From the NCBI GenBank assembly GCA_964482525.1, contig CAYZXV010000001.1:1-29260 (forward strand): 29,260 nt of DNA. The letters run 5' to 3'. The notes beneath the pieces are model-generated. The model saw nothing but the letters and a program-made list of their open reading frames with translations. It had not been told where the DNA came from and made no database searches. The translations under genes and the position numbers were made by a program. Positions 1,596 through 23,564 of this stretch are shown piece by piece. This DNA comes from an uncultured Rhodospirillaceae bacterium. Lineage in GTDB: Bacteria; Pseudomonadota; Alphaproteobacteria; UBA9219. Positions within the stretch are counted from its first letter, which is position 1, and each line of letters opens with the position of its first letter.

Positions 1596-1602
1596 CCCCT
1601 GG

Positions 1603-2184: not shown

Positions 2185-2199
2185 CGACGGCATCCTTTG

Positions 2200-8188: not shown

Positions 8189-8190
8189 TC

Positions 8191-8709: not shown

Positions 8710-8884
8710 CTTGTTAGAAAAAGAAGGAAAACCGCCTATTGTATCGATATTATAACATTCTGGCCCCGCGTAAGATATGGGAGAAACTAGGGTGATCTTA
8801 TGTGAAGTGATTCGATTCACGACATCTTAATCTTGTTTATCGCATAGTTGGGTGGGCTTTCTCTCAGTTTATCCAAGAAAATCG

Positions 8885-9394
8885 ATGTCTGACTCTCTTT
8901 TGCTCACGTTTGTGTTTATGCTTGCCGGTACCATAGTCCTTTGGGCGGCGTGGAACGATGCGCGTCGGTTTCGTTTGCCCAATGTTGCGTCGTTGGCGCT
9001 AGTCGCTCTTTTCCCCGTCTATGGCTATTTTTCTCCATCGAGTGTGGCTTGGGCCGAGCATCTTGTCGTGGCGCTTTTAGTGTTGGGCGGCGGGTATATC
9101 CTGTTTTTAAAAAATTGGGCAGGGGCGGGCGATGTCAAATTCGCTGCGGCTTTATCGCTTTGGGCAGGGCCTGCCCTGACACTTCATTTTTTGTTCGTTA
9201 TGGCAATGGCTGGTGGTATTCTGAGTCTTGGTATAGGGGCCATGACTTTAATCCGCCAGAAAATGGCAAAAGATGAAAGCGCGCCTACCCTTGCCAAAAC
9301 ACCCGTTCCTTACGGCATTGCCATCGCGGTTGCCGGTATAGTCCTTCTTATTCGTCTATCCCATCCGAACCTTCTGCCAAGTGTGGGGGTTTAA
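8885..9394 (+). CDS. cpaA: Prepilin peptidase CpaA/TadV (A24 family)
   Basis: WNDARRFRLPN and GAGDVKF aspartate motifs, several TM segments, C-terminal VPYGIAI. ATG 8885 preferred over GTG 8852. Confidence 0.9.
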   Translation: MSDSLLLTFVFMLAGTIVLWAAWNDARRFRLPNVASLALVALFPVYGYFSPSSVAWAEHLVVALLVLGGGYILFLKNWAGAGDVKFAAALSLWAGPALTLHFLFVMAMAGGILSLGIGAMTLIRQKMAKDESAPTLAKTPVPYGIAIAVAGIVLLIRLSHPNLLPSVGV

Positions 9395-9406
9395 GGAGCA
9401 AGCACC

Positions 9407-10345
9407 ATGTCAACACGTAAACTTCCGCTTCTCTTTGTTGCTCTTTTCATTGCTGCGATGACGGTTTTTCTCGCGCGCTCAATGATGAATGAGCCTATAG
9501 ACCCCGCTGCCCCTGTCGAAGTTAAAGCGCCGCCGACCTATGAAATCCTGGTTTCGGCGAAGGACTTGCCGTCCGGGACCTTGCTGACAGAAGCTGACGT
9601 AAAATGGAAAATATGGCCAAAAGAAGAAGGTAAGGAAGGCGAGGCCTCCGAGTTCGTGGTTAAAGGAGAGGCTGATGTAAAATCGGTTGTCGGCAATGTT
9701 GTTCGCTACGGGATTCGTGCTGGTGAACCAATTACGCCCGCACGGACCGTAAAACCAGGCGAGCAAGGATTTATGGCGGCCGCGCTTGCTCCAGGCATGC
9801 GCGCGGTGTCGATCGCGATTACGCCAGTGGCGGGGGTTGCCGGATTTATTTTTCCGGGTGATCGGGTGGATGTCATTGTTACCCACCAAGTTGGCCGCAA
9901 GAGCGAGGCAGATACCACCGAACGCCGCGTGAGTGAAACAATGCTTAGTGATGTGCGGGTTCTGGCTTTAGACCAAAAAATGAGCGATCAAGTTACGGAG
10001 CCTAAGGTTGCTCAGATTGCAACTCTGGAGGTGACGCCAAAGCAAGCGGAGAAGCTGGCCCTTGTGTCTGAGCTTGGCACGGTTTCACTAGCTTTACGCA
10101 GCATAGCAAATGATGCCGCAAAAACAACAGCCGACGCGCAAGAGGGCAAGGATCTTGCTCAAGAAGCTTTGGCCAATGTCATTGCAAATAGTTTGGCCCA
10201 AGAGACAGGCCACGAAATCACATGGGACAGTGATATCAGTAAAGTTCTTCCTCGCCCGGCCAATCGTTCGGGGGCCGTTCAAAAAATTCTAATCATAAGG
10301 GGCAAAGATGTCAGCGAAGCTATCTTTGACCTTCAACAGCCATAG
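9407..10345 (+). CDS. cpaB: Flp pilus assembly protein CpaB/RcpC
   Basis: N-terminal TM, SAF-like LVSAKDLPSGT, and PGMRAVSI...VAGFIFPGDRVDVIVT; SD AAGGAG upstream. Confidence 0.95.
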   Translation: MSTRKLPLLFVALFIAAMTVFLARSMMNEPIDPAAPVEVKAPPTYEILVSAKDLPSGTLLTEADVKWKIWPKEEGKEGEASEFVVKGEADVKSVVGNVVRYGIRAGEPITPARTVKPGEQGFMAAALAPGMRAVSIAITPVAGVAGFIFPGDRVDVIVTHQVGRKSEADTTERRVSETMLSDVRVLALDQKMSDQVTEPKVAQIATLEVTPKQAEKLALVSELGTVSLALRSIANDAAKTTADAQEGKDLAQEALANVIANSLAQETGHEITWDSDISKVLPRPANRSGAVQKILIIRGKDVSEAIFDLQQP

Positions 10346-10350
10346 GGATC

Positions 10351-12078
10351 ATGCTCATGCGTTCCTTGCGATCACTCTCCGTAAGCGCCTTATATGCTCT
10401 TCTTCTTCTTACGTCGGCAAACGCGCTTGCGGCATCGACGTCTGTGCCAGCGTCCATTGCCATGGTTTCGAAAGACGTCCAGACAGCGCCCTTGTCCGTT
10501 GATCCCTTAAAAAGACCGACCCCGCTTGAAATTATGATTGATAAGAGTGTTCCCGTTAATCTGACAGAGCCAGCGGCTACGGTTTTTGTTGCGAACCCAG
10601 AGATTGCCGACATTCAGGTCCTTTCGCCTAACTCAGTGATGGTTTTTGGGAAGAAGGCGGGTCAGACGACCTTGATTATTGCTGGGAATGATGGAAAAAA
10701 TCTTGTTTATCATACAGTAATGGTGTCTCAAAATCTCGCGGACCTGCGCGATGCGATCCGAACGGTGGTCCCGGGCTCATCTATCCAGGTTGAGCCCATC
10801 CCAAATGGCATCGTTTTGACGGGCGATGTTGGGGATTCGACGGCGATTGAAGATATTCGTCGTCTGGCGGCCCGATATTTACCGGAAACAGGAGGCGACA
10901 TCATAAACCGGATACGTGTGCGAGCGAACAACCAGATCCAAATTCGCGTGCGATTTGCCGAGGTTTCTAAGGATGTGGATAAACGGTTCGGCATCGACTG
11001 GGAAACGGTTGGAACCGTAGGTTCTTTTGCTTTTGGGCTTGCAACAGGGGCTGACTTTATTACCGCTGGGTCGACAGCAATTACGCGGACAGTTGTTGGT
11101 GACTCCGTTAATGATGCGTTTAGCACAAGCTTCAACAATAATCATTTCAGTGTTAACGGGATGATTGATGCCTTGGCCAAAGACGGTTTTGTAACGATCT
11201 TGGCCGAACCATCGCTTACGGCGATGTCTGGAGAGACAGCAAGCTTTTTGGCTGGTGGTGAGTTTCCGATCCCCGTGCCGCAATCGGCAAATACGATTAC
11301 AATTGAATGGAAACAGTATGGTGTTTCACTTGCCTTTACGCCAACCATTCTGAATGAAAATAGAATTAACCTTCATGTTCGGCCAGAAGTTAGCCAGCTG
11401 TCTGATGCTGGGTCTGTGACGCTTAACAACATTAATATCCCAGCCCTTACAACCCGTCGGGCTGAAACCACCATCGAATTGAATAGTGGACAAAGTTTTG
11501 CCATTGCAGGTCTTCTTAACAACCAACAAACGCAAAGCGTAGATAAATTCCCGTTCCTTGGCGATGTTCCCGTGCTGGGCCCTCTCTTTAGATCCACACG
11601 CTTTCAAAACAACGAAAGTGAGCTGGTGATTATCATCACGCCATATATTGTCAAGCCAACAACACAGGAAAATCTTAGCTTACCAACGGATGGTCTTGCT
11701 GCCCCCACAGATACAGATCGCGTTTTCCGTTTGCGCCAAACAAACAGTGATCCGAATGCAAAAACAATCAGTGGAGCTCCCCGCGCCGTAAGGGTTGAAA
11801 ACCCAATCCATGCGGAATCACCAGTTGTAACCAAGGCGCCTGTGGCGCCAGTGTTGCGAGAGGCCGCACATGGCGCCGAGCGGCCAAAAGCTGCCGACCA
11901 GTCAACGATCAGAGGCAGCCGAGCATCGACCGCAACCACTATGGAGGAGAAAAAGTCTTCCTCCAGCACAGGAGCAACGTCTGCACTTGCGCCAGCACCG
12001 ATGAGTAAACCAGCGCCCGTAAAACCAAAGGTAAAAACGCCAGGTCCATCAGGTCAAGGCGGCTTTATTGTGGAGTAA
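10351..12078 (+). CDS. cpaC: Tad pilus secretin CpaC/RcpA
   Basis: Signal peptide, VFVANPEIAD N-domain, QIRVRFAEV, LAEPSLTAMSGETASFLAGGEFPIP and FPFLGDVPVLGPLFRS secretin motifs. Confidence 0.95.
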   Translation: MLMRSLRSLSVSALYALLLLTSANALAASTSVPASIAMVSKDVQTAPLSVDPLKRPTPLEIMIDKSVPVNLTEPAATVFVANPEIADIQVLSPNSVMVFGKKAGQTTLIIAGNDGKNLVYHTVMVSQNLADLRDAIRTVVPGSSIQVEPIPNGIVLTGDVGDSTAIEDIRRLAARYLPETGGDIINRIRVRANNQIQIRVRFAEVSKDVDKRFGIDWETVGTVGSFAFGLATGADFITAGSTAITRTVVGDSVNDAFSTSFNNNHFSVNGMIDALAKDGFVTILAEPSLTAMSGETASFLAGGEFPIPVPQSANTITIEWKQYGVSLAFTPTILNENRINLHVRPEVSQLSDAGSVTLNNINIPALTTRRAETTIELNSGQSFAIAGLLNNQQTQSVDKFPFLGDVPVLGPLFRSTRFQNNESELVIIITPYIVKPTTQENLSLPTDGLAAPTDTDRVFRLRQTNSDPNAKTISGAPRAVRVENPIHAESPVVTKAPVAPVLREAAHGAERPKAADQSTIRGSRASTATTMEEKKSSSSTGATSALAPAPMSKPAPVKPKVKTPGPSGQGGFIVE

Positions 12079-12081
12079 ACC

Positions 12082-12510
12082 ATGCGACAAATTCGAAATT
12101 CCTTCCTGATCCTCGTTTTGACAGCCCTCACGGCGTGTCAGACCGCGCCGGTGCCAGATTATCGCATACAACTTATGCCTTCGGCTGATGGCAGATCCGT
12201 TATCGCTGTGCCCCCAGAATGCCCAAGCTGGGCAAGCGTTAGTAACGCGCCACATGAAGGAGGAACGGCCGCTCAGTATGGTTGTTCGCAGGCTCGCAAT
12301 CTAGCCGCGATGGTTGAGCGCCCTGAGGATTTGATTAGCCCGCGTCCTTTGGGCGCGCCTGATGGCGTTGTAACGGCAGGCTCAATTACGGCGTATCGGA
12401 CAGGTAAAACAAAAGCTCTGATTGATGTGAACGAGGCAGCCCCAGTTAATGACATCACAACTGGTGCAGGCATCGCGGCAGCGATTGCAGCAGCAGCATC
12501 GCAAAAATGA
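12082..12510 (+). CDS. cpaD: CpaD-like pilus biogenesis lipoprotein (short form)
   Basis: Lipobox LTAC and GCSQARNLAAMVERPEDL motif; position directly after cpaC. Confidence 0.8.
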   Translation: MRQIRNSFLILVLTALTACQTAPVPDYRIQLMPSADGRSVIAVPPECPSWASVSNAPHEGGTAAQYGCSQARNLAAMVERPEDLISPRPLGAPDGVVTAGSITAYRTGKTKALIDVNEAAPVNDITTGAGIAAAIAAAASQK

Positions 12511-12542
12511 GCGCGTCCAAAGGGAGTGTACAAAGGTGACGC

Positions 12543-13751
12543 ATGCATCCTGAGTTTATGGCCTTTCTCACCGAGCTTCAGACCCTTCAGCTTGTACGAA
12601 GCTGGGCAGACAAGCAGGGGTTTCCCGGCGACGCAGTGCGTGAGGGAGGGCCCGATTTGTTCTCAGTGCTTCTCGAGGCTGAAGCTCCGCCAAAGCTTGC
12701 TCTTGTCGACTTTGATACTGTTGAGCAACCAGTTCAGGTCGCCGCGCGACTTGTCAGTTTGTGCGGACCTGCAACGCGGATCATAGCGGTTGGCACGGCC
12801 AATGATGTTGGCTTGTACCGAAGCATTATAGCCGCAGGTCTTAACGATTATCTGGTTAAGCCCCTTACGCCGGAGGTTTTAACACAAACCATGATGGCGG
12901 CTGCGCGGGGTGATGCACCCGGTGCGCCGAAGAATGCAAAAGACATTGTTGTCATAGGCGTGCGTGGCGGTGTTGGCGCAAGCACGATAGCCGCAAATCT
13001 TGCCTGGCTGATCGCGCATGAACGTAAGGAAAAATGCGCTCTTCTTGATTTAGACCTTCAGTATGGAAGTAGCGCGCTTTCGTTGGATATTGAGCCTGGC
13101 CATGGGTTACGCGATGTTGTTAGTTCGCCCCAACGCGTTGATAGTCTGATGATCGCAGGGGCTCAAGTCAGCGAGAGTGATAACCTAGTAATTCTGAGCG
13201 CAGAGGAACCAATCGACGAAGTGATCCATGTCGACCCCCATGCTATCAGCGCACTGATAAAAGAAATGCGGACAGGTTATCGCGCGATATTGGTTGATAT
13301 GCCCCGACATATGATTGCAACCCAAAAAAGACTTCTTGCGACGGCGCATGAAATCATCCTCGTTACAGAGATGTCGTTGATTGGTATTCGCGACACGCTT
13401 CGTATGCGCACCACAATCAAGGGGCTGGGGTCCTCTGCAAGAATCACACAAATTGCCACGAAGATTGGAACCAATCGTCCCGCAGCAGTTGATGAAGCAA
13501 CCTTTACAAAAGGGGCTCAGGCTAAAATCGATTTTGTGTTCCCGGATGAACACAAAAACCTTGTTCTTGCAAGTAACGCGGGAAAGATGCTTGGCGCAAT
13601 TGCTCCCGACGCTGCCGCGAACAAAGTTCTACGTCAGCTAGCCGCTCATCTGTTGGATGAGCTCAAGGATAAAGATGGTGTTTCAAAAAAACAAAACGGC
13701 CTTCTTTCTTCTCTATTTAAGGGAAGCGAGAAGGGGGCGCCAAAATCATGA
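12543..13751 (+). CDS. cpaE: Pilus assembly protein CpaE/TadZ (receiver-like plus ParA/MinD-like domain)
   Basis: AGLNDYLVKP receiver remnant, deviant Walker A GVRGGVGAST, LLDLDLQYG; SD AAGGTG upstream. Confidence 0.92.
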   Translation: MHPEFMAFLTELQTLQLVRSWADKQGFPGDAVREGGPDLFSVLLEAEAPPKLALVDFDTVEQPVQVAARLVSLCGPATRIIAVGTANDVGLYRSIIAAGLNDYLVKPLTPEVLTQTMMAAARGDAPGAPKNAKDIVVIGVRGGVGASTIAANLAWLIAHERKEKCALLDLDLQYGSSALSLDIEPGHGLRDVVSSPQRVDSLMIAGAQVSESDNLVILSAEEPIDEVIHVDPHAISALIKEMRTGYRAILVDMPRHMIATQKRLLATAHEIILVTEMSLIGIRDTLRMRTTIKGLGSSARITQIATKIGTNRPAAVDEATFTKGAQAKIDFVFPDEHKNLVLASNAGKMLGAIAPDAAANKVLRQLAAHLLDELKDKDGVSKKQNGLLSSLFKGSEKGAPKS

Positions 13752-15394
13752 CGTCGATGGGTAACGCATCAGACGATCCTTTTGCAGCCATTGACAGCAC
13801 ACTTGCTGTTTTGGCAAGACGTATTTTTCCCGACCTTGAAAAACTGTTTCCAGCCGATCGTATGGGGGGCTTAACGCGTAACGACGTAAGTCGTGAGGTA
13901 AAAAGCTTCGCCCTAGCTTATCTAAAGCAGCAAGGAATGGAATTGAACTTGCTTGATCAACGCGATCTTGTTTCCGCGCTAACTAACCAAATTATGGCCC
14001 CTTATAGCAAGGTTGAGGAAGCGGTAAGCACTCTTCCCTTGCAGGCTGAGGATGTTCAAAAAAAAGTAGAAGTTGAACCTGAACCTCCGCCGCCGCCACG
14101 AAGGGTAGATGTTGCTCCCATTGATACTACTAGCCGAGCAAGTGTTGACCAGGCAAAACTTAAAATTCAACCGTTGGTATTGGAAAGGATCGATACCTCT
14201 GCCGCTGCGCGGATGGCCCGTGAAGATCTTGCCCGCGATCTGAAAGGCATTGTCAACGAGCTGCTGATTGAAACAAAAACACAACTAAATGCAGCAGAGC
14301 GTCTGGAGTTAGTCGAGCAACTACTTAACGACATGTTGGGCCTTGGCCCATTAGAGCCCTTGCTCGCAAACGAAGAGATCTCTGAGATTATGGTCAATGG
14401 ACCAAAGCAAGTTTATTGTGAAAGCAAGGGGCGGCTTACCCTTACGGATGTGAAATTTCGCGATAATGCGCATGTGCTCGCCATTGCCACACGCATCGTT
14501 ACGGCCATTGGCCGACGAATTGATGAAAGCTCACCTTTATGTGATGCGCGACTCGCAGATGGAAGCCGTGTTAACATAATTATTCCACCTCTTGCTATTG
14601 ATGGGCCGTCCATCACTATTCGTAAGTTTTCTAAAAAGAAGATTACGCTCGATACCATGGTTAAGTTTGGAAGCATTTCGCCACAAATGGCCAAGGTGTT
14701 ACGGATTGTTGGCCGCTGCCGATTGAACATTTTGATATCAGGCGGAACGGGCTCTGGGAAAACAACCTTGCTAAATGCTTTATCACAGATGATCGACCAT
14801 GGTGAACGTGTTGTGACCATCGAGGACGCGGCAGAGCTTCAACTTCAACAACCGCATGTGGTTCGCCTTGAAACACGCCCCGCTAACCTTGAGGGACATG
14901 GCGAAATTACAATGCGCGATTTGTTAAAGAATGCTCTTCGTATGAGGCCGGATCGCATTATTGTTGGCGAGACTCGCGGCGGTGAGGCTATTGACATGCT
15001 TCAAGCCATGAACACGGGGCATGATGGGTCGCTCTCCACCGTTCACGCAAACCGTCCGCGTGAGGCGGTAATGCGGCTTGAAAACATGGTTGGTCTTGGC
15101 GGTGCCAACTTGGCACCCCGCGCCATTCGTCAGCAAATCGCAAGCGCCGTTGACATGATTATTCAGGTTAGCCGCATGCGTGACGGCTCACGTCGTATCA
15201 CCCATATTTCTGAAATCACGGGTATGGAGGGTGAAGTGGTGGCTTTACAGGATTTGTTTGTTTGTGAAGTTACAGGAGAGCTCCCGGATGGGCGGCTCAC
15301 TGTTGAGTTCAAAAACAACGGCCTTAGGCCGCATTGTTTGCCAAAGGCCGCTTATTATGGGCTTGAAAAGGAATTAATGGAGGCAATGTCGTGA
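13748..15394 (+). CDS. cpaF: Tad pilus ATPase CpaF/TadA with N-terminal extension
   Basis: GLGPLEPLL, Walker [34 protein letters not shown] and [15 protein letters not shown]. Confidence 0.97.
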
Positions 15395-16377
15395 CAACGC
15401 CTATGCTTCTTTTTGTCGCTCTTGGAGGCGGGCTCTCCCTTTTTATGATTGTTTCTCTTTTCATGGGGGACGATCCTTCCGAGGCCATGAAGAAACGTCT
15501 GGATCGTGTAGCCGGAACGGCTCCTGCTAAAAACCTACGCCCAGAGGATAAAAGTGGAAGTTTAAGACGACAGACCAGTGATAGCTCGATACCATTATTG
15601 GATAAGTTGATTAAGGCTACCTTGCCGAACCCGGAAAAAATGAGGCAGCGGCTAGCGCGAACCGGAAAGGTAATCGCGTTGGGTGAGTATTTAATGATTA
15701 ACGGACTTTGTATCCTTCTTTTTTATTTTGTTTTTGTCTATATAGCTGGATGGAGCAAGCCGGTCGCCTTTCCTCTTTCCATTGCTGTTGGCTTGTATTT
15801 GCCTCACATGATTACTGGACGCATGGGGAATAAGCGTATTTTGAAGTTCTTGGCGAGTTTTCCAGAGGCGATTGATACGATATGCCGTGGCTTGCGTTCA
15901 GGGCTTCCGATAACCGAGACTATCACAACTGTTGGGAATGAATTGCCCGATCCCATTGGTATTGAATTTAGACGCATCAGTGATGGTGTTCGAATGGGAC
16001 GTTCGCTCGAAGACGCGATGTGGGACGTAACAAGTCGGATAGACACGCCAGAATTTCGCTTCTTCATCATCGCGTTGGCAATCCAACGAGAAACTGGCGG
16101 TAATTTGGCCGAAACACTAGGCAATTTAGCAGAGCTTTTACGTAAACGCCGCCAACTTAAACTCAAAATCCGTGCCATGTCCTCTGAAGCTCGTGCTTCG
16201 GCCATGATTATTGGGTCGCTTCCTTTCTTGATGTTTGCGTTGTTAATGGCTGTGAATTCTGAATACATGATGATTATGCTCAACGATATTAAGGGCAAGA
16301 TTCTGTTGGCAGGAGGTTTAACCTGGCTTGGTTTTGGGGTTCTAGTTATGAAACAGCTTGTCAATTTTGAAATATGA
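15391..16377 (+). CDS. tadB: Tad pilus inner-membrane platform protein TadB
   Basis: FPEAIDTICRGLRSG, IQRETGGNLAETLGNL and RAMSSEARAS motifs; T2SS-F-like. Confidence 0.93.
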   Translation: MTTPMLLFVALGGGLSLFMIVSLFMGDDPSEAMKKRLDRVAGTAPAKNLRPEDKSGSLRRQTSDSSIPLLDKLIKATLPNPEKMRQRLARTGKVIALGEYLMINGLCILLFYFVFVYIAGWSKPVAFPLSIAVGLYLPHMITGRMGNKRILKFLASFPEAIDTICRGLRSGLPITETITTVGNELPDPIGIEFRRISDGVRMGRSLEDAMWDVTSRIDTPEFRFFIIALAIQRETGGNLAETLGNLAELLRKRRQLKLKIRAMSSEARASAMIIGSLPFLMFALLMAVNSEYMMIMLNDIKGKILLAGGLTWLGFGVLVMKQLVNFEI

Positions 16378-16389
16378 TGGGGTTGCCGC

Positions 16390-17355
16390 GTGCTTAAAGA
16401 CCTCGACCAACTTCTCCACAGCCCCGATTTTCTTGCTGGCCTTTGTGGGTTGGCGGCTTTCTCTGTCGTTGTGCTTGTTTGGACTGCGTTTGTCGATGGA
16501 GGGCCAAAAGCTGATCGACTTAAGGCCGTTTCTCAACGCTTAAGCGAGTTTGAGGCAGATAGACGCAAAAAAAACACGCGCCGCGCAAGTCTGCAAAAAG
16601 TCAGTTTGATGAAGCAAGTGGTAGCGTGGCTGAAGCTGTCACAGGGTAAAAGTCTTGAAGGCTTGAGGCTTAAACTGCGCCGTGCAGGGTATCAGGCTCG
16701 TGATGCAATGTTTGTGTTTTTGTTTGCAAAACTTGCCATGATGGGTGGGCTTGCCGCAACGGGGTTTTTCTTTTTTGGAATTCTTCGGGTGGGCGACCTT
16801 GGTTTTGCGCTTGTATTATTGATTGCAATGTTTGGCGCTCTGATTGGATGGATGCTGCCTGATATCATTGTGAAGAATATGAGTCAGAAACGTGAAGATA
16901 TTCTACGCAAAGCTATTCCCGATGCCCTTGATTTGATGGTTATCTGCGCCGAGGCAGGCCTTGGTCTTGATGCCGCATTGGATCGTGTGGGGCGGGAGGT
17001 CGCACAAAGCTGTCCTGAGCTTGCCGAAGAAATTGGCGTCACAAGCGTAGAGCTTAATTTTATGCCCGATCGACACAAGGCTCTTCATTCTTTGGCAGAG
17101 CGAGTGCCGTTGCCCAGCGTTACTGCTCTTGTCAATACGCTCATCCAAACCGAGAAGTATGGGACGCCTTTAGCGCAGGCTCTTCGTGTTTTGTCGTCAG
17201 AAATGCGTGAGGAACGCATGATGCGCGCTGAGTCCAAAGCTGCGGCGCTGCCAGCCGTGCTGACTGTCCCGATGATCATTTTCATTCTGCCGCCATTATT
17301 CGTTGTTCTAATTGGGCCCGCCGCGCTTAAGGTCGCAACTGCGATGGCGAAATAA
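16390..17355 (+). CDS. tadC: Tad pilus inner-membrane platform protein TadC
   Basis: PDALDLMVICAEAGLGLDAAL, LIQTEKYGTPLAQALRV and TVPMIIFILP motifs. Confidence 0.93.
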   Translation: MLKDLDQLLHSPDFLAGLCGLAAFSVVVLVWTAFVDGGPKADRLKAVSQRLSEFEADRRKKNTRRASLQKVSLMKQVVAWLKLSQGKSLEGLRLKLRRAGYQARDAMFVFLFAKLAMMGGLAATGFFFFGILRVGDLGFALVLLIAMFGALIGWMLPDIIVKNMSQKREDILRKAIPDALDLMVICAEAGLGLDAALDRVGREVAQSCPELAEEIGVTSVELNFMPDRHKALHSLAERVPLPSVTALVNTLIQTEKYGTPLAQALRVLSSEMREERMMRAESKAAALPAVLTVPMIIFILPPLFVVLIGPAALKVATAMAK

Positions 17356-17361
17356 GAACGA

Positions 17362-20103
17362 TTACCCAGCAGCCCCGTGACAGTGCTTATATTTTTTTCC
17401 TGATCCACAAGGGCATGGCGCATTGCGTGGCGTAGACCCCCACGTTGAGGCGTCGGTTGGATTGAATTGGTTTTGAACCGGCGTTTGGTGAGGGCGGGTG
17501 ACAAGACGAGGTCCGCCTGCCCCTGCATGTGCCGTTTGTTCGGAAGAAACTTCCTCTGGGGCAAGGCCGTGAAGCTCTCTCATTTCTTGCGCGCGACGGG
17601 CGGCTACATATTCTTCTAACGTTGGCATGCGAAATTCGGCATACATCAACGCCTTGATCACCTTTTCGGCGACATCCTTAAGCATCATCTGGTAAAGCTC
17701 GAAGGCTTCGCGACTGTATTCATTAAAGGGATCGCGTTGGCCGTAACCGCGAAGATGGATACCCTGTCTTAATTGATCGAGGGCGAGGAGGTGGTCCTTC
17801 CACGCGGCATCAAGAATACCAAGAAGGGCTGCCTTTTCTGCTAAAGCCATCCGTTCCAGGCCCAGCGCCGCTGCTTTTCGTGCCATAACATCGTCGGCGG
17901 CGTTAATAATCCTCTCTTCGATTTCTGCCTCAGCGATATCATCGCTTTTTACCCAAGTTTCGATGGGAAGGTCCAGGGCCAAAATGTCTCTGACCCGTTC
18001 TTGCAGGCCTTTAAGGTCCCATTGTTCATGGTAGGAATGGGGTGGGATAGCACGAGAAACCATATCGTGGATGAGCTCACGACGCATTTCACGGATATCC
18101 TCGCTGACCGATGCGGCCGCCATAATATCCTTTCGTTGTTCATAAACAATCTTGCGTTGATCATTCATGACGTTGTCAAATTTAAGCAGGTTCTTTCGGA
18201 TATCAAAATTGCGGGCTTCGACCTTTTGTTGGGCCTTTTCAAGTGCCGTACTGATCCAAGGATGAGCAATTTTTTCCCCACCACGCAGACCAAGTTTTGT
18301 CAGGATGCCTTCCATCCGCTCAGAGCCAAAGATACGCATCAGGTCATCTTCAAGTGAAAGATAGAACATCGACGCGCCGGGATCTCCCTGGCGACCGGAG
18401 CGGCCGCGCAATTGGTTGTCGATACGTCTTGACTCGTGACGCTCTGTGCCAATGACAAACAGGCCTCCCGCTGCTCTGGCTTTCATCGCGTCCGCGGCGA
18501 TATCGGCACGGAGTGCTTCGACGTGTTGGGCGTGTTCGTGGGGATCCGCAATATGAGCCAGTTCTTGTTCGACCCTCATGTCGAGATTACCACCCATTTG
18601 GATGTCGGTGCCCCGGCCAGCCATGTTTGTTGCGATGGTTACCGCGCCGGATCGCCCAGCTTGGGCGATGATCTGGGCCTCTTGTTCATGATAGCGGGCA
18701 TTAAGAACGTTATGCTTAATGCCATTCTTTTTGAACAAGGTCGAAAGCTCTTCAGATTTTTCAATCGACACGGTGCCGACAAGGACAGGTTGTCCTCGGC
18801 TTTGACATTCTTTGATTTTTTTGACAATGGCCTCGTATTTTTCGGCCATAGTACCATAGATTTCGTCTTCCATGTCTTTGCGCGCGGCAGGGACATTGGT
18901 TGGGATTTCGACTGTTTCAAGGTTATAGATTTCTGCAAACTCGGCGGCCTCTGTTAAGGCCGTGCCGGTCATGCCGGCCAGTTTTGGATACAGGCGGAAA
19001 TAGTTCTGGAAAGTGATGGAGGCAAGTGTTTGGTTCTCGCGTTGAATTGCTACACGCTCTTTTGCTTCTAACGCTTGATGAAGACCGTCGGAATAGCGGC
19101 GACCATCCATCATGCGACCAGTAAATTCGTCAATGATGATGACTTTCCCGCCCTTGACGATGTAGTCCACGTCCCGTTGGAACATTTTGTGTGCGCGAAG
19201 AGCCTGATTAACGTGATGGACGACGGCAATGTTTTGGGCATCGTAAAGGCCGCCGCCGGGCGTAAGGAGCCCAGCTTCGCCAAGCCATAATTCTATGCGT
19301 TCGTTGCCAGCCTCAGTAAGGGTGCAGGTTTTGTTCTTTTCGTCCTTTTCGTAGTCAGTGTCTTCCAAACGTGGGATAAGGGCGTCGATTTTCTGATATA
19401 ATTCTGAAGAATCTTCGGCAGGTCCAGAAATGATAAGAGGTGTCCGCGCTTCGTCAATCAAGATGCTGTCGACTTCATCAACGATCGCAAAATTGAAAGG
19501 ACGCTGGCAAAGCTCCTTGGGGTCGAATTTCATATTATCGCGCAGATAATCAAATCCGAACTCGTTGTTCGTCCCGTAAGTAATGTCGGCGTTATAGGCT
19601 GCCTGCCTCTCTTCATCTGACAGGCCATGAACAATACAGCCTACGGTCAGGCCCAGTGCGTTGTAGACACGGCCCATCCATCGGCTGTCGCGTCGCGCCA
19701 GATAGTCGTTGACGGTCACAACATGAACGCCTTTGCCTGAGAGGGCGTTCAGGTAGACCGGAAGCGTTGCCACAAGGGTTTTTCCTTCGCCGGTTTTCAT
19801 TTCGGCGATTTTCCCATCATGAAGGACCATGCCGCCGCGTAATTGGACATCAAAGGGGCGTTGGCCCAAAACGCGTTTAGCAGCCTCTCGCACGGTTGCA
19901 AAAGCTTCGGGAAGAAGGTCGTCCAGGGTTTCTCCTTTTTCGAGCCGCTCGCGAAATTCAGCAGTTTTGTTGCGGAGCTGATCATCCGTCAGCTTGAGAA
20001 AATCAGACTCTAATTCATTGATTCTAATTATAGTTTTGTCTTGAGAGCGGAGAACGCGGTCGTTATAAGAACCAAAAATTTTGCGAAAAAGGGCGGCAAC
20101 CAT
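17362..20103 (-). CDS. secA: Preprotein translocase ATPase SecA
   Basis: [49 protein letters not shown] and C-terminal [18 protein letters not shown]. Confidence 0.99.
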
Positions 20104-20223: not shown

Positions 20224-22401
20224 TTAGGCTGGTTGTGCGGTGCGCATCAGGCGATATGCCGAAAAATCATCCTTTGTCAGTTGGTTAAGGGCATCCATGG
20301 TTCGGCACAAATGGATACCTTTTTCACTGCAAAAGCGATCGTCTTTTATAAGGGCATGAGTCAATTCTTTTCCAAAAAGACCATCGAGGATGGGATACTG
20401 GAATCCATGGGCCCCCGTTCCTGGCCCCCCCCCAGGCCAGAGGTTGGGCGAGTAGAGGCGCATGGTAAAGCGGCGACCTATTTCAGGGAGATACTTTTTC
20501 ACAAGCCATGCGCCGAGTTTCTCTTCTTCGGTGCCTACCCCGCCTGGGAAAAGGGCGAGGGTTGCAGCTGCTGTAATCATTCCAGCTTCACGGTCTTTGA
20601 TATTCGGGTTGATTTCCCAATAATGGCAACCGGAGGGAATGCGTCCTTGGGCAGATTCTGTCTTTAGAATAGTGGGTGTACTTAAGCCGCTAATATGAAA
20701 ACCCCCTCTGTCACGATAGCCAGTAAAAGGTGCCCACATGCCTTTGCCTGGAGAGTCGCCAGCCCCCCAACAGAAATTTGCTCCTTGAGTAGCTAAGAAC
20801 GCGCCGTAGGCCTTTGCTGCTTCGACTAGACATAAATTTCCGTTGCTGGCTGAGATAAAAACAACGCCAGTTGGCCGTGCTGGATCGGCGGGTATGCCGC
20901 CCGTTGTTCGCGTTGTTGGCGTGTCATACGGGGCAATAAAGGGGGAGTAACGTAGGGCGCGAATTTTAAGAAGCTCTTTTGTAGCCTTTCTCATAGCTTT
21001 TGCATTGGCCGTTTCCAAGATGTCCAGATGGGCTGTGCATATGTGCCGGACATTTTCACATAAATCGATGCGGGTTGGTTCCGCAAAGGCTGGGCGAAGG
21101 TGGTCTCCGTGCATCCCTCTGTTGGCCAGATAGGTTAAAACATTTATGATTGGTGTCCAACTCCCATCATTTTGAACTATGATTGGTTTATAGGCTTCGC
21201 GGGCTTCAAGGCTTTTTGATACAATCGCACAGAACAATGTGTAAACTGAGAAATCTCTTGTTTTCTCATCTAAGCCTGTCAAAGGCGGAAAAACCAAGGC
21301 AGCGGTTTCTTCAAGAGATGGGGAGGGGGTTAGTAGATTGTAAACCTGTTCACGCGCAGGAGCGTTTCGGCTGATTGAGTTCCACGTAAAGCCGTCGACA
21401 ATTTTTACAAGAAATGACGGATCCTTTCTTCGAGGCGTGCTTTGGGGATGGACAATATGTCGAGGTAAAGTTAATGGATTCTTTTCGTTTTTGGTTTCGA
21501 GAGTTTTCCAAAGAGATATGAGAGCCTTGCTTCGGACGCTGTCATGCGTAAGGAATTTTTTCCATTTTGCGGCAATCGGAACGCCTGGTTCGTTTGGCGA
21601 AGACAAAAACCACCGTGTGGCATGCATTTTGTTTTCAGGAAGAAAGAGGGGCGAGGATAAATCGTTGCAGGCCAAATGGAGCTCGACCGTTTGATTGACG
21701 ACAGTCAAGGGTGCTTCGGGGGGATCTGAAAGACGTTGAACGGTAAGAACGGCGGTGTCCCAGATTGAAAGGGTCCTTATCCCTAACTCATTCGCGCTTT
21801 CACGGAACAGATCAAAAAGGACACGCCAACCGCCGACCGCTGCGGCAATGGGACCTGTTTCGGCTCCAGGGCCATGCGCGCGCCCCCCATTGTCGGCACG
21901 ATTCAGGATCTCTTGTGCAACAAAGGAGTCAAGTTTCGTCTTTGCCCAGCGCCAAACACCTCGGCTGGTTAATTTGATTTCGCTGTCTTCTGATACAAAA
22001 AGGATTTTTTCGGGATCAAACGCAATATGATGTTCGGCGCATAAATCCTGTAATGCCGTTTTGTATCGTGAATCTTTGCGGCAAAAACCAATGATTTCCT
22101 GCGCTGTTTCGGCTTTTTGTAGGGCGTTCGCCTTCGCGCTCCCTGTGTCTTCTTCTGCTGAATGAACCGCTTGCGCCACACGGTTGATATTCATAATGTG
22201 AAACGGAAGACTTCGCGCGCGCGCTATGGCCTGGTAATGCTCAACTTTCTCCCTTGTGTGTGTAATAAGAAAGACCAGATAGCCCGGAATTTTCCATTGT
22301 CCGTCTTGCCCAATGGTTGATATTGCTTTCCGGCGAGTAGAGGGTATTAGATTATTAAAAGGGCGCATGATTTTGTATGTGTTAACTTTTATGGAAGCCA
22401 A
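20224..22401 (-). CDS. Multidomain protein: Ham1/ITPase-like N-terminal domain, degenerate LOG-like module and C-terminal LOG/SLOG phosphoribohydrolase domain
   Basis: Ham1-like motifs FLITHTREKVEH, EEDTGSAKANALQKA, SEDS, GPG and SVRSKAL; LOG motifs WGAG, IKDRE and FPGGVGTEEE. The start is uncertain (TTG 22401 or ATG 22368). Confidence 0.75.
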   Translation of the reverse strand: MASIKVNTYKIMRPFNNLIPSTRRKAISTIGQDGQWKIPGYLVFLITHTREKVEHYQAIARARSLPFHIMNINRVAQAVHSAEEDTGSAKANALQKAETAQEIIGFCRKDSRYKTALQDLCAEHHIAFDPEKILFVSEDSEIKLTSRGVWRWAKTKLDSFVAQEILNRADNGGRAHGPGAETGPIAAAVGGWRVLFDLFRESANELGIRTLSIWDTAVLTVQRLSDPPEAPLTVVNQTVELHLACNDLSSPLFLPENKMHATRWFLSSPNEPGVPIAAKWKKFLTHDSVRSKALISLWKTLETKNEKNPLTLPRHIVHPQSTPRRKDPSFLVKIVDGFTWNSISRNAPAREQVYNLLTPSPSLEETAALVFPPLTGLDEKTRDFSVYTLFCAIVSKSLEAREAYKPIIVQNDGSWTPIINVLTYLANRGMHGDHLRPAFAEPTRIDLCENVRHICTAHLDILETANAKAMRKATKELLKIRALRYSPFIAPYDTPTTRTTGGIPADPARPTGVVFISASNGNLCLVEAAKAYGAFLATQGANFCWGAGDSPGKGMWAPFTGYRDRGGFHISGLSTPTILKTESAQGRIPSGCHYWEINPNIKDREAGMITAAATLALFPGGVGTEEEKLGAWLVKKYLPEIGRRFTMRLYSPNLWPGGGPGTGAHGFQYPILDGLFGKELTHALIKDDRFCSEKGIHLCRTMDALNQLTKDDFSAYRLMRTAQPA

Positions 22402-22598
22402 TGCCCTTTCTATAGCGGGTTGATTGCCCCAAATTCCAGAGAATTCAGCGTTAAAATGGGGTAGTAAATACTTTCATATGCATTTGATAAGTAATAAAAT
22501 TCCCTGATAACTGATTTTTAAGCCTTTCCGGGCATAAGGAGGATAGACCCTTCCTGCCAAACACCCCCGTGATTCCTTTAATAGTGCGGTTGTCCGCG

Positions 22599-23564
22599 AT
22601 GACAAAACTACAATCTTCCTTCCTGATGTGCATTCTTGCTGGGGCGGCGTTGCCGCTTGTCTTTGTTGCTTCACGAGGCGACGATGGCGCTCTCCTTTGG
22701 GCGGCAGGGATCGGTGGTGTTGTTGGGCTGGGGGGGTACGGGCTAAGCCATTTATTAACGCAAAGCATTGCCAGAGAACAAGAGCAGCAGGTTGCTGATA
22801 CGGTGGCTGGGATGCGCGGCGCATTGCGTACAAAAATGGGAGAACTTCAGAATGGGTTGATGGAAAAAGCAAAGAAATTAGAACGACTTTCTGAAGAGCA
22901 ACAGAAGAAAGCGACCGATGCCGCATCCTCGGCAGCGCAGGCGACTGAGAATTCTACGGTGATTTCAAGTGCGATTGAAGAGATGAACGCGGCAATCCAA
23001 GAAATTGGACGCCAAGCGGATGAGGCTGGAAACGTTGCTGCCAGTGCAGCAGAGAAGACTCGGGAAGCAGATGTAGCAGCCAGCGGCTTGTCTGAAAAAA
23101 GTGATGAGATCTTATCAATTGTAGAGTTGATTCGTTCAATTGCAAGCCGGACCAACCTTCTTGCCCTTAACGCAACGATTGAGGCCGCACGCGCAGGAGA
23201 TCATGGGAAGGGGTTCGCGGTCGTAGCGAATGAGGTAAAGTCGCTTGCCAACCAGACGGCAGAGGCCACGGCGCAAATCGAAAAGCAAATTAATAATGTG
23301 CGCGAAGCGTCTCACAACATGAAAAGCCAGATGTCCGCACTTGAGGAGATCATGGCGCGGATTAATACGACGACCCAGGTAATCAAAAAGGCTTTGTATG
23401 AGGAAAGTTCCGCAACGCAAGAAATTGCGCGGAGTGCGCAGGAAACAAGCAAGGCGACCCAGGCTGTGACGGCAGTCATATCGCATATGCTGGTTACAAC
23501 CGAAGAGATTCGGCATTCTGCGGAAACGATGGCTGGCGCGGCCTCTGTTTCTCTGCAGGATTAG
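22599..23564 (+). CDS. Methyl-accepting chemotaxis protein lacking a periplasmic sensor domain
   Basis: Two TM helices, then the hairpin-tip motif [40 protein letters not shown] 22599 preferred; GTG 22569 is the alternative. Confidence 0.92.

What the first reader, a model, noticed from the sequence alone, without database searches (positions are those of the whole stretch)
20224..22401. Best candidate for a new system: Ham1/ITPase fused to a LOG phosphoribohydrolase, a possible one-protein NTP-to-free-base pathway
Seen: residues about 41-300 (nt about 21502-22281) carry the Ham1/RdgB motifs in the right order: FLITHTREKVEH (cf. ATxNxxKxxE), EEDTGSAKANALQKA (cf. EExGxTFxENAxxKA), SEDS at 137-140 (cf. 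ADDS/VEDT with the catalytic Asp kept), GPG, and SVRSKAL (cf. SHRxKAL). Residues about 511-700 (nt about 20302-20871) carry LOG motifs: VFISAS, WGAG, IKDRE (catalytic Arg position) and PGGVGTEEE (20521-20547). Knowledge: Ham1 enzymes convert (d)ITP/XTP to NMP plus PPi; LOG/PpnN enzymes cleave NMP to base plus ribose-5-phosphate; SLOG domains also serve as nucleotide sensors or processors in anti-phage systems such as Thoeris. Inference: consecutive reactions in one chain would destroy non-canonical or modified nucleotides, release signalling bases, or deplete NTPs on infection. The SHR-to-SVR change and insertions suggest altered base specificity. I know of no characterised protein with this architecture.
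Basis: partly seen in the sequence, partly recalled or inferred. Interest (0 to 1): 0.8.

Follow-up and report, generated by a model that had tools for sequence, protein, structure and literature searches.

The report
Fused Ham1-LOG nucleotide clean-up enzyme
A 725-residue protein of an uncultured alphaproteobacterium joins a very divergent Ham1/ITPase-type NTP pyrophosphatase to a LOG-type nucleotide N-glycosidase; this fusion has not been described, probably converts unwanted nucleoside triphosphates to free base within one protein, and physically links two enzymes that yeast genetics had already placed in one detoxification pathway.

Summary
The C-terminal domain (aa 499-725) is a LOG phosphoribohydrolase by sequence profile (E=1e-18 to solved LOGs), by fold (TM 0.72-0.81) and by catalytic residues (R604, PGGxGTxxE with E627). 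The N-terminal domain (aa 41-305) has the Ham1/ITPase fold (TM 0.61-0.73, only Ham1 structures match it) and keeps the catalytic Asp (D139, 67/67 relatives) plus K52, E84 and K96. By sequence alone the Ham1 link is not significant. The architecture is not an artefact: an exhaustive search found 85 cluster representatives, mostly 700-850 aa, all unannotated, and 62 of 67 keep all six catalytic residues. The genes sit in core-genome, partly syntenic positions (secA, lpdA/sucB, inside the atp operon), not in defence islands. No defence model matches. The Asp-to-His change of defensive KomB-type HAM1 proteins is absent. The best reading is a bifunctional (d)NTP to NMP to base sanitising enzyme; the substrate is unknown and no activity has been tested. 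It is a new variant of known kinds and moderately interesting.

The parts
20224..22401 (-). Whole ORF, 725 aa (TTG start; alternative ATG at aa 12 gives the 714-aa public gene call), stop codon at 20224-20226
   Evidence: P0001, 714 aa; upstream sequence
22282..22401 (-). N-terminal leader, aa 1-40, poorly conserved and mostly low-confidence in the model
   Evidence: pLDDT <50 for aa 1-27; not conserved between relatives
21487..22281 (-). Ham1/ITPase-like domain, aa 41-305, about 70-80 residues longer than canonical Ham1 (extra helices around aa 100-125 and a loop around aa 245-275)
22246..22248 (-). K52, the phosphate-binding Lys position of the T-x-N-x-x-K motif (here T47-x-T49-x-x-K52)
   Evidence: K in 64/67 relatives; colinear with RdgB K13 (lead only)
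22111..22155 (-). EEDTGSAKANALQKA, aa 83-97: E84, N92 and K96 correspond to the E-x-G...N-A-x-x-K-A motif of Ham1
   Evidence: E84 65/67, N92 61/67, K96 66/67
21982..21993 (-). SEDS, aa 137-140, with D139 at the position of the catalytic Asp of Ham1 enzymes
   Evidence: D139 invariant 67/67; defensive KomB-type HAM1 carry His here
21520..21540 (-). SVRSKAL, aa 288-294, counterpart of the Ham1 S-H-R motif with the His replaced
   Evidence: S288 45/67; position 289 is P/V/A rather than H; R290 55/67
21412..21486 (-). Linker, aa 306-330, low confidence and variable
   Evidence: pLDDT 50-63
20908..21411 (-). Middle domain, aa 331-498, conserved; tentatively a degenerate copy of the second half of a LOG domain without the catalytic motif (ALVFPPLTG in place of PGGxGTxxE; KPIIVQNDGSW)
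   Evidence: hhalign of middle versus C-terminal sub-alignments: probability 91.5%, E=8.7e-7; the beta-alpha order in the model parallels the second half of the LOG domain; no Pfam or PDB sequence hit of its own
20227..20907 (-). LOG (Lysine_decarbox/PF03641-type) phosphoribohydrolase domain, aa 499-725
   Evidence: profile versus PDB: 7w2i E=1.3e-18, 3qua, 3sbx, 5its; 5zbj E=7e-8 with a 3-sequence profile; Foldseek TM 0.72-0.81; Pfam LOG in 46/64 relatives, best 3e-15
20590..20592 (-). R604, counterpart of the catalytic Arg of LOG (Arg99 of CgLOG)
   Evidence: invariant 67/67; aligned to the Arg of solved LOGs; role from PMC4979012
20521..20547 (-). PGGVGTEEE, aa 619-627, the PGGxGTxxE nucleotide-binding and catalytic motif; E627 is the counterpart of the catalytic Glu122 of CgLOG
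   Evidence: G620 63/67, G621 65/67, G623 66/67, T624 60/67, E627 65/67
17362..20103 (-). secA, the next gene downstream on the same strand (120-nt gap); the same adjacency occurs in a relative that is only 30% identical

Best explanation
The gene encodes a cytoplasmic, bifunctional nucleotide-pool sanitising or catabolic enzyme. The N-terminal Ham1/ITPase-like domain hydrolyses a nucleoside triphosphate, most likely a non-canonical or base-modified purine (d)NTP, to the monophosphate plus pyrophosphate. The C-terminal LOG domain then cleaves the N-glycosidic bond of that monophosphate, releasing the free base and (deoxy)ribose 5-phosphate, so the aberrant nucleotide cannot be re-phosphorylated. 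The conserved middle domain is probably a catalytically dead half-LOG. It may stand in for the second subunit that normally completes the LOG active-site pocket at the dimer interface. Shown here: the two folds, the order of the domains, the conservation of the catalytic residues of both domains, the family-wide architecture and the core-genome context. Inferred: both activities, their coupling, the substrate and the role of the middle domain.
For: Folds: the AlphaFold model has pLDDT 90.5 and pTM 0.91. Foldseek matches LOG at TM 0.72-0.81 and Ham1 at TM 0.61-0.73, and the earlier shallow model gave Ham1 structures as its top 18 hits. Catalytic residues: D139 and R604 are the only invariant columns in 67 relatives. 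K52, E84, K96, D139, R604 and E627 are all present in 62/67, and four of the five exceptions are gaps in truncated sequences. In solved LOGs the Arg and the last Glu of PGGxGTxxE are the proposed catalytic pair, and the pocket is built by a dimer (PMC4979012). The Asp is the residue lost in the non-catalytic sensor KomB. Pathway logic: in yeast, HAM1 and LOG1 both protect against 6-N-hydroxylaminopurine and 5-FU with partial mutual dependence, and the authors place Log1p downstream of Ham1p (PMC5940212). STRING lists ITPase as the top predicted partner of Dictyostelium LOG (PMC11228631). Context: always among housekeeping genes, with synteny kept between distant members (secA in the window and L005; lpdA/sucB in L004, L007, L008, L009, L011; between atpG and atpD in L010). 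Nucleotide-metabolism neighbours occur in some loci: a dCMP-deaminase-like gene in three, a 5'-nucleotidase, and a stand-alone LOG plus upp.
Against: No activity has been measured. The Ham1 assignment is not significant by sequence: Pfam gives 15.6 bits against a cut-off of 22.5, only 3/64 relatives reach E<0.01, the family profile hits solved Ham1 at E=0.016-0.35, and an N-domain profile finds nothing. The Asn of the T-x-N-x-x-K motif is Thr in 56/67 and the His of S-H-R is replaced, so substrate binding differs from characterised ITPases and hydrolysis cannot be assumed. For the normal Ham1 products IMP and XMP a follow-up glycosidase would be pointless, because they are ordinary intermediates; the model therefore needs a different, unidentified substrate. 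The protein evolves much faster than its syntenic neighbours (30% against 78% for SecA; 39% against 81% for Lpd and SucB), which is unusual for a housekeeping enzyme. The family is very rare (85 representatives among 1.84 billion). The role of the middle domain rests on one internal hhalign match.
Confidence: 0.55

Rival explanations
1. A regulated nucleosidase. Only the LOG domain is catalytic, and the Ham1-like domain is an allosteric nucleotide sensor that switches NMP degradation on or off. This would resemble KomB sensing dITP in Kongming, or the flanking domains of PpnN that bind (p)ppGpp.
For: There is a precedent for a HAM1 domain turned into a sensor. PpnN is a LOG enzyme under nucleotide control and is among the fold hits. 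Two substrate-binding positions of canonical Ham1 are changed, Asn to Thr49 and the His of S-H-R. The domain is too divergent for sequence models.
Against: The catalytic Asp, which is exactly the residue lost in sensor-type HAM1 proteins, is invariant here in 67/67, together with E84 and both Lys residues. Conservation of a full catalytic set over 20-45% overall identity argues for chemistry and not only binding.
Confidence: 0.2
2. Production of a free signalling base, for example a cytokinin-like N6-modified adenine, from its triphosphate or from modified nucleotides released by tRNA turnover. The chemistry is the same as in the best explanation, but the released base is the purpose and not a waste product.
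For: The best-known role of LOG is release of N6-modified adenines from their monophosphates. In two relatives the gene directly follows an IPPT (miaA-like) gene (L012) or a radical-SAM/TRAM (miaB-like) gene (L013).
Against: Only 2 of 13 loci show this. miaA sits in a common alphaproteobacterial core block (hflKC-degP-serB-miaA), so the adjacency may be coincidence. There is no adenylate isopentenyltransferase, receptor or exporter nearby. Residues of the prenyl pocket were not tested.
Confidence: 0.12
3. An anti-phage or conflict effector that depletes NTPs, or processes a deaminase-made non-canonical nucleotide signal, on infection. This is the reader's alternative and is Kongming-like: deaminase plus HAM1 plus effector.
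For: The protein evolves much faster than its neighbours. A divergent CDA-fold deaminase is adjacent in three loci in three different orientations. Kongming combines a deaminase, a HAM1-like protein and an effector. SLOG domains occur in defence systems.
Against: All 13 loci are core-genome, and several are syntenic across distant members. No PADLOC model matches five family members or the deaminase neighbour beyond a marginal hit. There is no SIR2, TIR or other effector and no mobile-element genes flanking. The catalytic Asp is kept, whereas defensive HAM1 invariably have His. The deaminase is absent from 10 of 13 loci and from this window's neighbourhood.
Confidence: 0.08
4. An artefact: a chimeric assembly, or two adjacent genes read through as one ORF.
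For: None found.
Against: The frame is continuous. The same three-domain length occurs in about 65 independent cluster representatives from different projects. pTM 0.91 indicates confidently packed domains.
Confidence: 0.01

Closest known systems
Ham1/ITPase family (E. coli RdgB, human ITPA, yeast Ham1p; Pfam PF01725)
   Same: Same fold. Same order of motifs, with the phosphate-binding Lys, the metal-binding Glu, the N-A-x-x-K Lys and the catalytic Asp conserved.
   Different: Not recognised by the Pfam model at its threshold. About 70-80 residues longer. The Asn of T-x-N-x-x-K is Thr and the His of S-H-R is lost. It is fused to two further domains, whereas canonical members are stand-alone proteins of about 200 aa.
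Type-I LOG cytokinin riboside 5'-monophosphate phosphoribohydrolases (CgLOG 5its, MmLOG 3sbx, PaLOG 5zbk, Rv1205 7w2i; PF03641)
   Same: Rossmann-type LOG fold at TM up to 0.81. PGGxGTxxE motif, catalytic Arg and Glu, and a GGG motif.
   Different: The window protein scores below the Pfam and NCBIfam thresholds. The GGG motif is extended (WGAGDSPGKGM). The domain is part of a 725-aa chain preceded by a degenerate half-LOG, whereas canonical LOGs are homodimers of about 180-200 aa.
Yeast Ham1p to Log1p detoxification route for non-canonical nucleotides (Carlsson et al. 2018, PMC5940212)
   Same: The same two enzyme families are proposed to act consecutively: NTP to NMP by Ham1p, then NMP to free base by Log1p.
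   Different: In yeast they are two separate proteins linked only by genetics. Here they are one polypeptide. The biochemistry of the coupled route has not been shown in either case.
PpnN (YgdH), the (p)ppGpp-regulated nucleotide 5'-monophosphate nucleosidase
   Same: A LOG catalytic core embedded in a larger multidomain protein; among the top fold hits (6gfl, 9hs1).
   Different: The PpnN equivalog model scores 15.9 bits against a cut-off of 450. The flanking domains are unrelated. Fold alignments cover only the LOG core (about 225 columns).
Kongming KomB (defensive HAM1-like dITP sensor) with KomA deaminase and KomC SIR2
   Same: A HAM1-like module combined with another nucleotide-related module, and in three relatives a neighbouring deaminase.
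   Different: KomB-clade proteins have His in place of the catalytic Asp, partner with SIR2 and lie in defence islands or mobile elements. Here the Asp is invariant, no SIR2 is present and the loci are core-genome. The neighbouring deaminase is CDA-fold (PF00383), not adenosine deaminase PF00962.
Human DCTPP1 - DCTD - DNPH1 route for modified deoxynucleotides (from my own knowledge, not checked here)
   Same: The same logic: an NTP pyrophosphatase, a dCMP-type deaminase and an NMP N-glycosidase remove a modified nucleotide. The three loci with the dCMP-deaminase-like neighbour would supply all three steps.
   Different: The enzyme families are unrelated for the first and last steps (all-alpha MazG-like and nucleoside 2-deoxyribosyltransferase-like). 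This is an analogy only.

Membership tests
Ham1/ITPase (PF01725, Maf/Ham1 fold) | Significant match to the family's sequence model | tested here: not met
   Pfam Ham1p_like gives 15.6 bits, E=0.015, against a cut-off of 22.5. 3 of 64 relatives reach E<0.01, best 3.5e-5. The family profile versus solved Ham1 sequences gives E=0.016-0.35. An N-domain profile finds no hits.
Ham1/ITPase (PF01725, Maf/Ham1 fold) | ITPase/Ham1 three-dimensional fold | tested here: met
   Foldseek probability 1.00 with TM on target 0.73 (4bnq_A), 0.69 (3tqu), 0.66-0.67 (RdgB) and 0.61 (ITPA). All of the top 18 hits of an independent shallow model were Ham1. Viral HAM1 domains also match. This is a predicted model, not an experimental structure.
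Ham1/ITPase (PF01725, Maf/Ham1 fold) | Catalytic Asp of the (D/E)-D-(S/T) motif | tested here: met
   D139 is present in 67/67 and E/D138 in 66/67. The role of this Asp is as described.
Ham1/ITPase (PF01725, Maf/Ham1 fold) | Phosphate- and metal-binding residues: Lys of T-x-N-x-x-K, Glu of E-x-G, Lys of N-A-x-x-K-A | tested here: met
   K52 64/67, E84 65/67, N92 61/67, K96 66/67.
Ham1/ITPase (PF01725, Maf/Ham1 fold) | Asn of T-x-N-x-x-K and the S-H-R base-pocket motif | tested here: not met
   Position 49 is Thr in 56/67 and never Asn. Position 289 is P/V/A rather than His. S288 (45/67) and R290 (55/67) are kept.
Ham1/ITPase (PF01725, Maf/Ham1 fold) | NTP pyrophosphohydrolase activity on non-canonical purine NTPs | not testable with these tools
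   Needs an enzyme assay.
LOG / Lysine_decarbox (PF03641) | Significant match to the family's sequence model | tested here: met
   The window protein alone is below threshold (20.8 bits against 27; NCBIfam). The family profile hits solved LOGs at E=1.3e-18. 46/64 relatives hit PF03641, best 3e-15. P0002 and others carry precomputed PF03641.
LOG / Lysine_decarbox (PF03641) | LOG Rossmann-type fold | tested here: met
   Foldseek TM 0.80 (3qua), 0.81 (3sbx), 0.77 (5zbk with AMP) and 0.80 (5its_A).
LOG / Lysine_decarbox (PF03641) | PGGxGTxxE motif with catalytic Glu, and the catalytic Arg | tested here: met
   PGGVGTEEE is at aa 619-627. E627 is present in 65/67 and R604 in 67/67. They align to the same residues of solved LOGs. 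Their roles are given in PMC4979012.
LOG / Lysine_decarbox (PF03641) | Homodimer that forms the active-site pocket | not testable with these tools
The middle domain may replace the partner subunit (inference).
LOG / Lysine_decarbox (PF03641) | Nucleoside 5'-monophosphate phosphoribohydrolase activity | not testable with these tools
   Needs an enzyme assay.
PpnN (NF038390) | Equivalog-level match including the PpnN-specific flanking domains | tested here: not met
   15.9 bits against a cut-off of 450, covering the LOG core only. Fold alignments to PpnN cover about 225 columns of 431-454 residues.
Kongming KomB-type defensive HAM1 | Catalytic Asp replaced by His; partner SIR2 (KomC); location in defence islands or mobile elements | tested here: not met
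   D139 is present in 67/67. No SIR2 occurs in any of 13 loci, and all contexts are core-genome. PADLOC gives no hits, although that library dates from 2023 and may lack Kongming.
Thoeris ThsA-type or other defence SLOG sensors | Match to defence-system SLOG models, fusion to SIR2 or TM effectors | tested here: not met
   PADLOC gives no hit for the window protein or for four relatives. The catalytic LOG residues are retained.

The most novel reading that the evidence does not exclude
The protein could be a fast-evolving, chromosomally fixed conflict or stress module in which the Ham1-like domain captures and hydrolyses a non-canonical nucleotide made by a partner deaminase or by an invader, and the LOG domain destroys the product. 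That would be a catalytic, SIR2-free counterpart of Kongming-type signalling or a nucleotide-depletion effector. In the same spirit, the subgroup with the dCMP-deaminase-like neighbour could form a three-step NTP to NMP to deaminated NMP to base route analogous to human DCTPP1-DCTD-DNPH1.
Probability: 0.1. Interest if true: 0.8.

Novelty: new variant of a known kind. Interest (0 to 1): 0.55.

Why it matters
If both domains are active, this is a natural Rosetta-stone fusion. It physically links Ham1/ITPase and LOG enzymes, so far connected only by yeast genetics (PMC5940212). It would support the proposal that the ancestral job of LOG proteins is the destruction of non-canonical nucleotides rather than cytokinin synthesis, and it gives a single purifiable protein in which the coupled NTP to NMP to base route can be assayed. 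It also defines an unannotated family (called 'hypothetical' or 'Rossmann-fold nucleotide-binding protein' in the sources) whose Ham1 domain is invisible to current sequence models. That shows ITPase-like enzymes exist beyond what Pfam-based surveys count. The possible intramolecular pseudo-dimer of LOG would be a new way of building that active site. The limits are that the family is rare, confined so far to uncultured Alphaproteobacteria-like MAGs, and the chemistry is a combination of known reactions.

Tried and rejected
1. Sequence-profile proof of Ham1 membership failed. Profiles of the N domain (3 and 21 sequences) found no solved Ham1. The full-family profile gave only E=0.016-0.35.

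2. The first structure prediction, from three sequences, was poor (pLDDT 45.8). It was superseded by the 67-sequence model.

3. The search for homologous proteins with the 67-sequence alignment returned only the same three close relatives. That search was wasted.

4. The search for related loci with broad alignments failed for lack of conserved stretches. With close alignments it found only one known MAG in the genome collection, then nothing and one partial locus in metagenomes.

5. The middle domain gave no Pfam or PDB sequence hit on its own. Its LOG-like nature rests on the internal hhalign match.

6. Defence role: PADLOC was negative and there is no defence-island context, so I rejected it as the main reading.

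7. Deaminase partnership as a general feature: rejected, because it occurs in only 3/13 loci. The CDA deaminase in the window at 1603-2193 is an ordinary one 18 kb away.

8. Promoter and terminator scans gave nothing above shuffled expectation.

9. The first literature search was swamped by unrelated uses of 'HAM1', 'LOG' and 'fusion'.

10. Interface and active-site geometry could not be analysed because model coordinates are not exposed to the scripting tool.
Full report
THE OBSERVATION

The window carries a 725-codon ORF on the minus strand at 20224-22401 with a TTG start. The public gene call for the identical protein begins at the ATG of residue 12 and is 714 aa (P0001). An AAGGG lies a few bases before the TTG, and either start leaves the domains untouched.

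SINGLE-SEQUENCE SEARCHES

Searched alone, the protein is in the twilight zone. Pfam gives Lysine_decarbox/LOG at E=4.8e-4 (aa 570-633) and Ham1p_like at E=0.015 (aa 44-102), both under the curated cut-offs. NCBIfam gives LOG and PpnN models at E of about 1e-3. phmmer against PDB sequences gives LOG and PpnN chains at E=1e-4 to 0.7. The word-indexed search of 5.8 billion proteins found only the protein itself and two relatives at 44% identity. One of them comes from a Rhodospirillaceae MAG and is named 'hypothetical protein'.

THE FAMILY

An exhaustive HMMER search of 1.84 billion cluster representatives, using a profile of the first 505 residues only and so without the LOG domain, found 85 proteins, 72 of them at E<1e-10. 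Most are 700-870 aa long. The multidomain architecture is therefore a family feature and not an assembly artefact. No stand-alone canonical Ham1 of about 200 aa was among the hits. Where the sources give names, these are 'hypothetical protein', 'predicted Rossmann-fold nucleotide-binding protein' or 'LOG family protein'.

In an alignment of 67 long members (20-45% identical to the window protein) the only invariant columns are D139 and R604. The columns conserved at 90% or more are K52, E84, N92 and K96 in the N-terminal part, and S517, A518, G546, T575, E582, G586, I601, G620, G621, G623 and E627 in the C-terminal part. All six presumed catalytic residues (K52, E84, K96, D139, R604, E627) are present in 62 of 67 sequences. 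Four of the five exceptions are gaps in truncated sequences.

THE C-TERMINAL DOMAIN IS A LOG ENZYME

A three-sequence profile of aa 506-725 hits solved LOG structures at E=7e-8, and the 67-sequence profile at E=1.3e-18. Of 64 relatives, 46 hit PF03641 individually, with a best E-value of 3e-15. The alignments place R604 on the Arg, and E627 on the last Glu, of the PGGxGTxxE motif. Those are the two proposed catalytic residues of LOG, Arg99 and Glu122 in CgLOG (PMC4979012). The PpnN equivalog model is not met, at 15.9 bits against a cut-off of 450.

THE N-TERMINAL DOMAIN HAS THE HAM1/ITPASE FOLD

With three sequences AlphaFold gave a poor model (pLDDT 45.8). Only aa 41-245 were confident, yet the top 18 Foldseek hits in the PDB were all Ham1/ITPase structures. 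With the 67-sequence alignment the model reached pLDDT 90.5 and pTM 0.91 over all three domains.

Foldseek then returned LOG structures at TM 0.72-0.81 on the target. It returned Ham1 structures at TM 0.61-0.73: S. aureus Ham1 4bnq at 0.73 and E=3.7e-5, Coxiella 3tqu, E. coli RdgB 2pyu and 1k7k, and human ITPA 2j4e. All had probability 1.00. The viral structure library gave the matching picture: HAM1 domains of cassava brown streak virus polyproteins, a phage dITP/XTP pyrophosphatase and, separately, a cyanophage LOG protein. No viral protein had both.

The conserved residues fall on the Ham1 motifs in the right order. T47-x-T49-x-x-K52 corresponds to T-x-N-x-x-K. E84...N92-A-x-x-K96 corresponds to E-x-G...N-A-x-x-K-A. 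[ED]138-D139-[ST]140 corresponds to D-D-S. S288-x-R290 corresponds to S-H-R.

By sequence statistics alone, however, the relationship is not established. The Pfam threshold is not met. Only 3/64 relatives reach E<0.01. N-domain profiles find no solved Ham1. Two canonical substrate-contact positions differ systematically: Asn is replaced by Thr49, and the His of S-H-R is replaced by Pro, Val or Ala. I therefore call the domain Ham1-like, catalytically equipped, and of unknown specificity.

THE MIDDLE DOMAIN

Residues 331-498 are as conserved as the rest but match nothing in Pfam or the PDB by sequence. hhalign of the family's middle-domain columns against its own LOG-domain columns gives probability 91.5% and E=8.7e-7. 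The alignment places 'DALVFPPLTG' opposite 'PGGxGTxxE' and 'KPIIVQNDG' opposite the following strand. The beta-alpha-beta-alpha-beta-alpha order in the model parallels the second half of the LOG domain.

In LOG dimers the helices that follow the PGGxGTxxE motif form the interface, and the partner subunit contributes residues to the base pocket. My inference, which is not tested, is that this dead half-LOG mimics the partner subunit, making the LOG unit an intramolecular pseudo-dimer.

GENOMIC CONTEXT

The window is ordinary chromosome: hisF, hisIE, a GT4 gene, aroB, an unknown 645-aa ORF, xerD, a histidine phosphatase, a Tad/Flp pilus operon, secA, the target, a small MCP, a GT2 gene and rmlCBDA. 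SecA is 79-81% identical to SecA of MAGs labelled Alphaproteobacteria or Rhodospirillaceae.

Thirteen distinct loci of family members were read, and all are core-genome.
- In the window and in L005/L006 the gene is next to secA, with the same xerD/His_Phos/aro block nearby.
- In L004, L007, L008, L009 and L011 it is next to lpdA or sucB.
- In L010 it lies between atpG and atpD, inside the ATP synthase operon.
- In L012 it follows a miaA-like gene, and in L013 a miaB-like gene.

No integrases other than xerC/D, no toxin-antitoxin pairs and no known defence genes flank it. PADLOC models match neither the protein nor four relatives.

The protein is the fastest-evolving gene of its syntenic blocks. 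Between the window and L005 it is 30% identical, against SecA 78%, XerD 64% and His_Phos 53%. Between L004 and L007 it is 39% identical, against Lpd 81%, SucB 81%, NadA 74% and HisC 55%.

In three loci of the sucB/lpdA group a divergent CDA-fold deaminase of 260-300 aa is adjacent, in three different orientations. It carries C-x-E...PCxxC, all three copies hit PF00383 (best E=1e-6), and its closest solved relative is human dCMP deaminase. It is absent from the other ten loci and from the target's neighbourhood in this window.

MECHANISM

The best-supported reading is a bifunctional sanitising or catabolic enzyme. The Ham1-like domain converts a (d)NTP to the NMP plus pyrophosphate, and the LOG domain converts the NMP to base plus (deoxy)ribose 5-phosphate. 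The supporting evidence is threefold. Complete catalytic residue sets are retained in both domains across a very divergent family. The domains are confidently packed in the model. Independent yeast genetics shows that HAM1 and LOG1 both protect against 6-N-hydroxylaminopurine and 5-fluorouracil with partial mutual dependence, from which the authors place Log1p downstream of Ham1p and propose that degrading non-canonical nucleotides is the original function of LOG (PMC5940212; echoed in PMC11228631).

IMP and XMP are normal intermediates, so the substrate is more likely a nucleotide whose monophosphate is itself unwanted. N6-modified adenine nucleotides are an attractive guess, because both Ham1 (HAP) and LOG (cytokinin precursors) are known for N6-substituted adenines. 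The altered base-pocket motifs leave this open.

The main rival is that the Ham1-like domain is a sensor, as KomB is in Kongming. KomB-clade proteins invariably carry His in place of the catalytic Asp, pair with SIR2 and sit in defence or mobile contexts (bioRxiv 10.1101/2024.12.20.629578). None of this holds here. A signalling-base role and a defence role cannot be excluded but have little support.

NOVELTY

Both catalytic modules belong to known superfamilies, and the two-step logic has been proposed before. The fusion itself appears undescribed, as do its third domain and this highly divergent Ham1 clade. Full-text searches for Ham1 or ITPase together with LOG, SLOG or phosphoribohydrolase returned only the yeast and Dictyostelium papers and defence reviews. 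I rate it a new variant of a known kind with moderate interest. It offers a direct biochemical test of the Ham1-to-LOG pathway idea and shows that Ham1-like enzymes exist outside the reach of current sequence models.

Noticed in passing
L009:7082-7981 (+), L004:7004-7795 (-), L007:10252-11139 (+): A divergent CDA-fold deaminase of 260-300 aa is adjacent to the Ham1-LOG gene in three relatives, in three different orientations. It carries C-x-E...PCxxC, hits PF00383 in all three copies, and has a long N-terminal extension. Its closest solved relative is human dCMP deaminase. It is absent from the other ten loci.
   Followed up: partly
L010:8001-10550: In one relative (P0054, 849 aa) the gene sits inside the F1 ATP synthase operon, between atpG and atpD.
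   Followed up: no
L012:5035-5832 and L013:4461-5843, 8131-9051, 9117-9767: One relative directly follows an IPPT (miaA-like) gene. Another follows a radical-SAM/TRAM (miaB-like) gene and is itself followed by a stand-alone LOG gene and upp. This is a possible link to modified-adenine nucleotides, or coincidence.
   Followed up: no
L005:6636-7733: A PF06189 5'-nucleotidase gene lies just upstream of the relative P0009, on the same strand.
   Followed up: no
window 20224-22401 compared with L005, L004, L007, L011: The Ham1-LOG protein is the fastest-evolving gene in its syntenic blocks (30-42% identity where SecA, Lpd, SucB and NadA are 74-81%), although its catalytic residues are invariant.
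   Followed up: partly
window 5304-7241 (+): A 645-aa ORF upstream of xerD has no Pfam hit. A 38%-identical 682-aa counterpart sits next to xerD in L005, so it is a conserved unknown protein of this lineage.
   Followed up: partly
window 1603-2193 (-) and 1543-2241 (+): Two long ORFs overlap on opposite strands. The minus-strand one is a canonical CDA-family deaminase (PF00383, E=9e-19). The longer plus-strand ORF has no hit and is probably spurious.
   Followed up: yes
window 8852-17355 (+): A complete-looking Tad/Flp pilus operon: prepilin peptidase, RcpC/CpaB, secretin, a ParA-like ATPase, the TadA-type ATPase and two TadB/C-type membrane proteins.
   Followed up: no
window 22569-23564 (+): A small (331 aa) methyl-accepting chemotaxis protein with only the signalling domain recognised is divergently placed upstream of the target.
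   Followed up: no
window 2200-3375 (-) and L008:72-1337: A GT4 glycosyltransferase hits the Pfam model 'GT4-conflict' (E=4e-11) as well as ordinary GT1-group models. A similar gene occurs in L008. It is probably an ordinary polysaccharide gene.
   Followed up: no
names given by sources: Several close SecA relatives from MAGs are labelled 'Bdellovibrionales bacterium' although their nearest neighbours are labelled Alphaproteobacteria. This is probably MAG misclassification in the source records.
   Followed up: no
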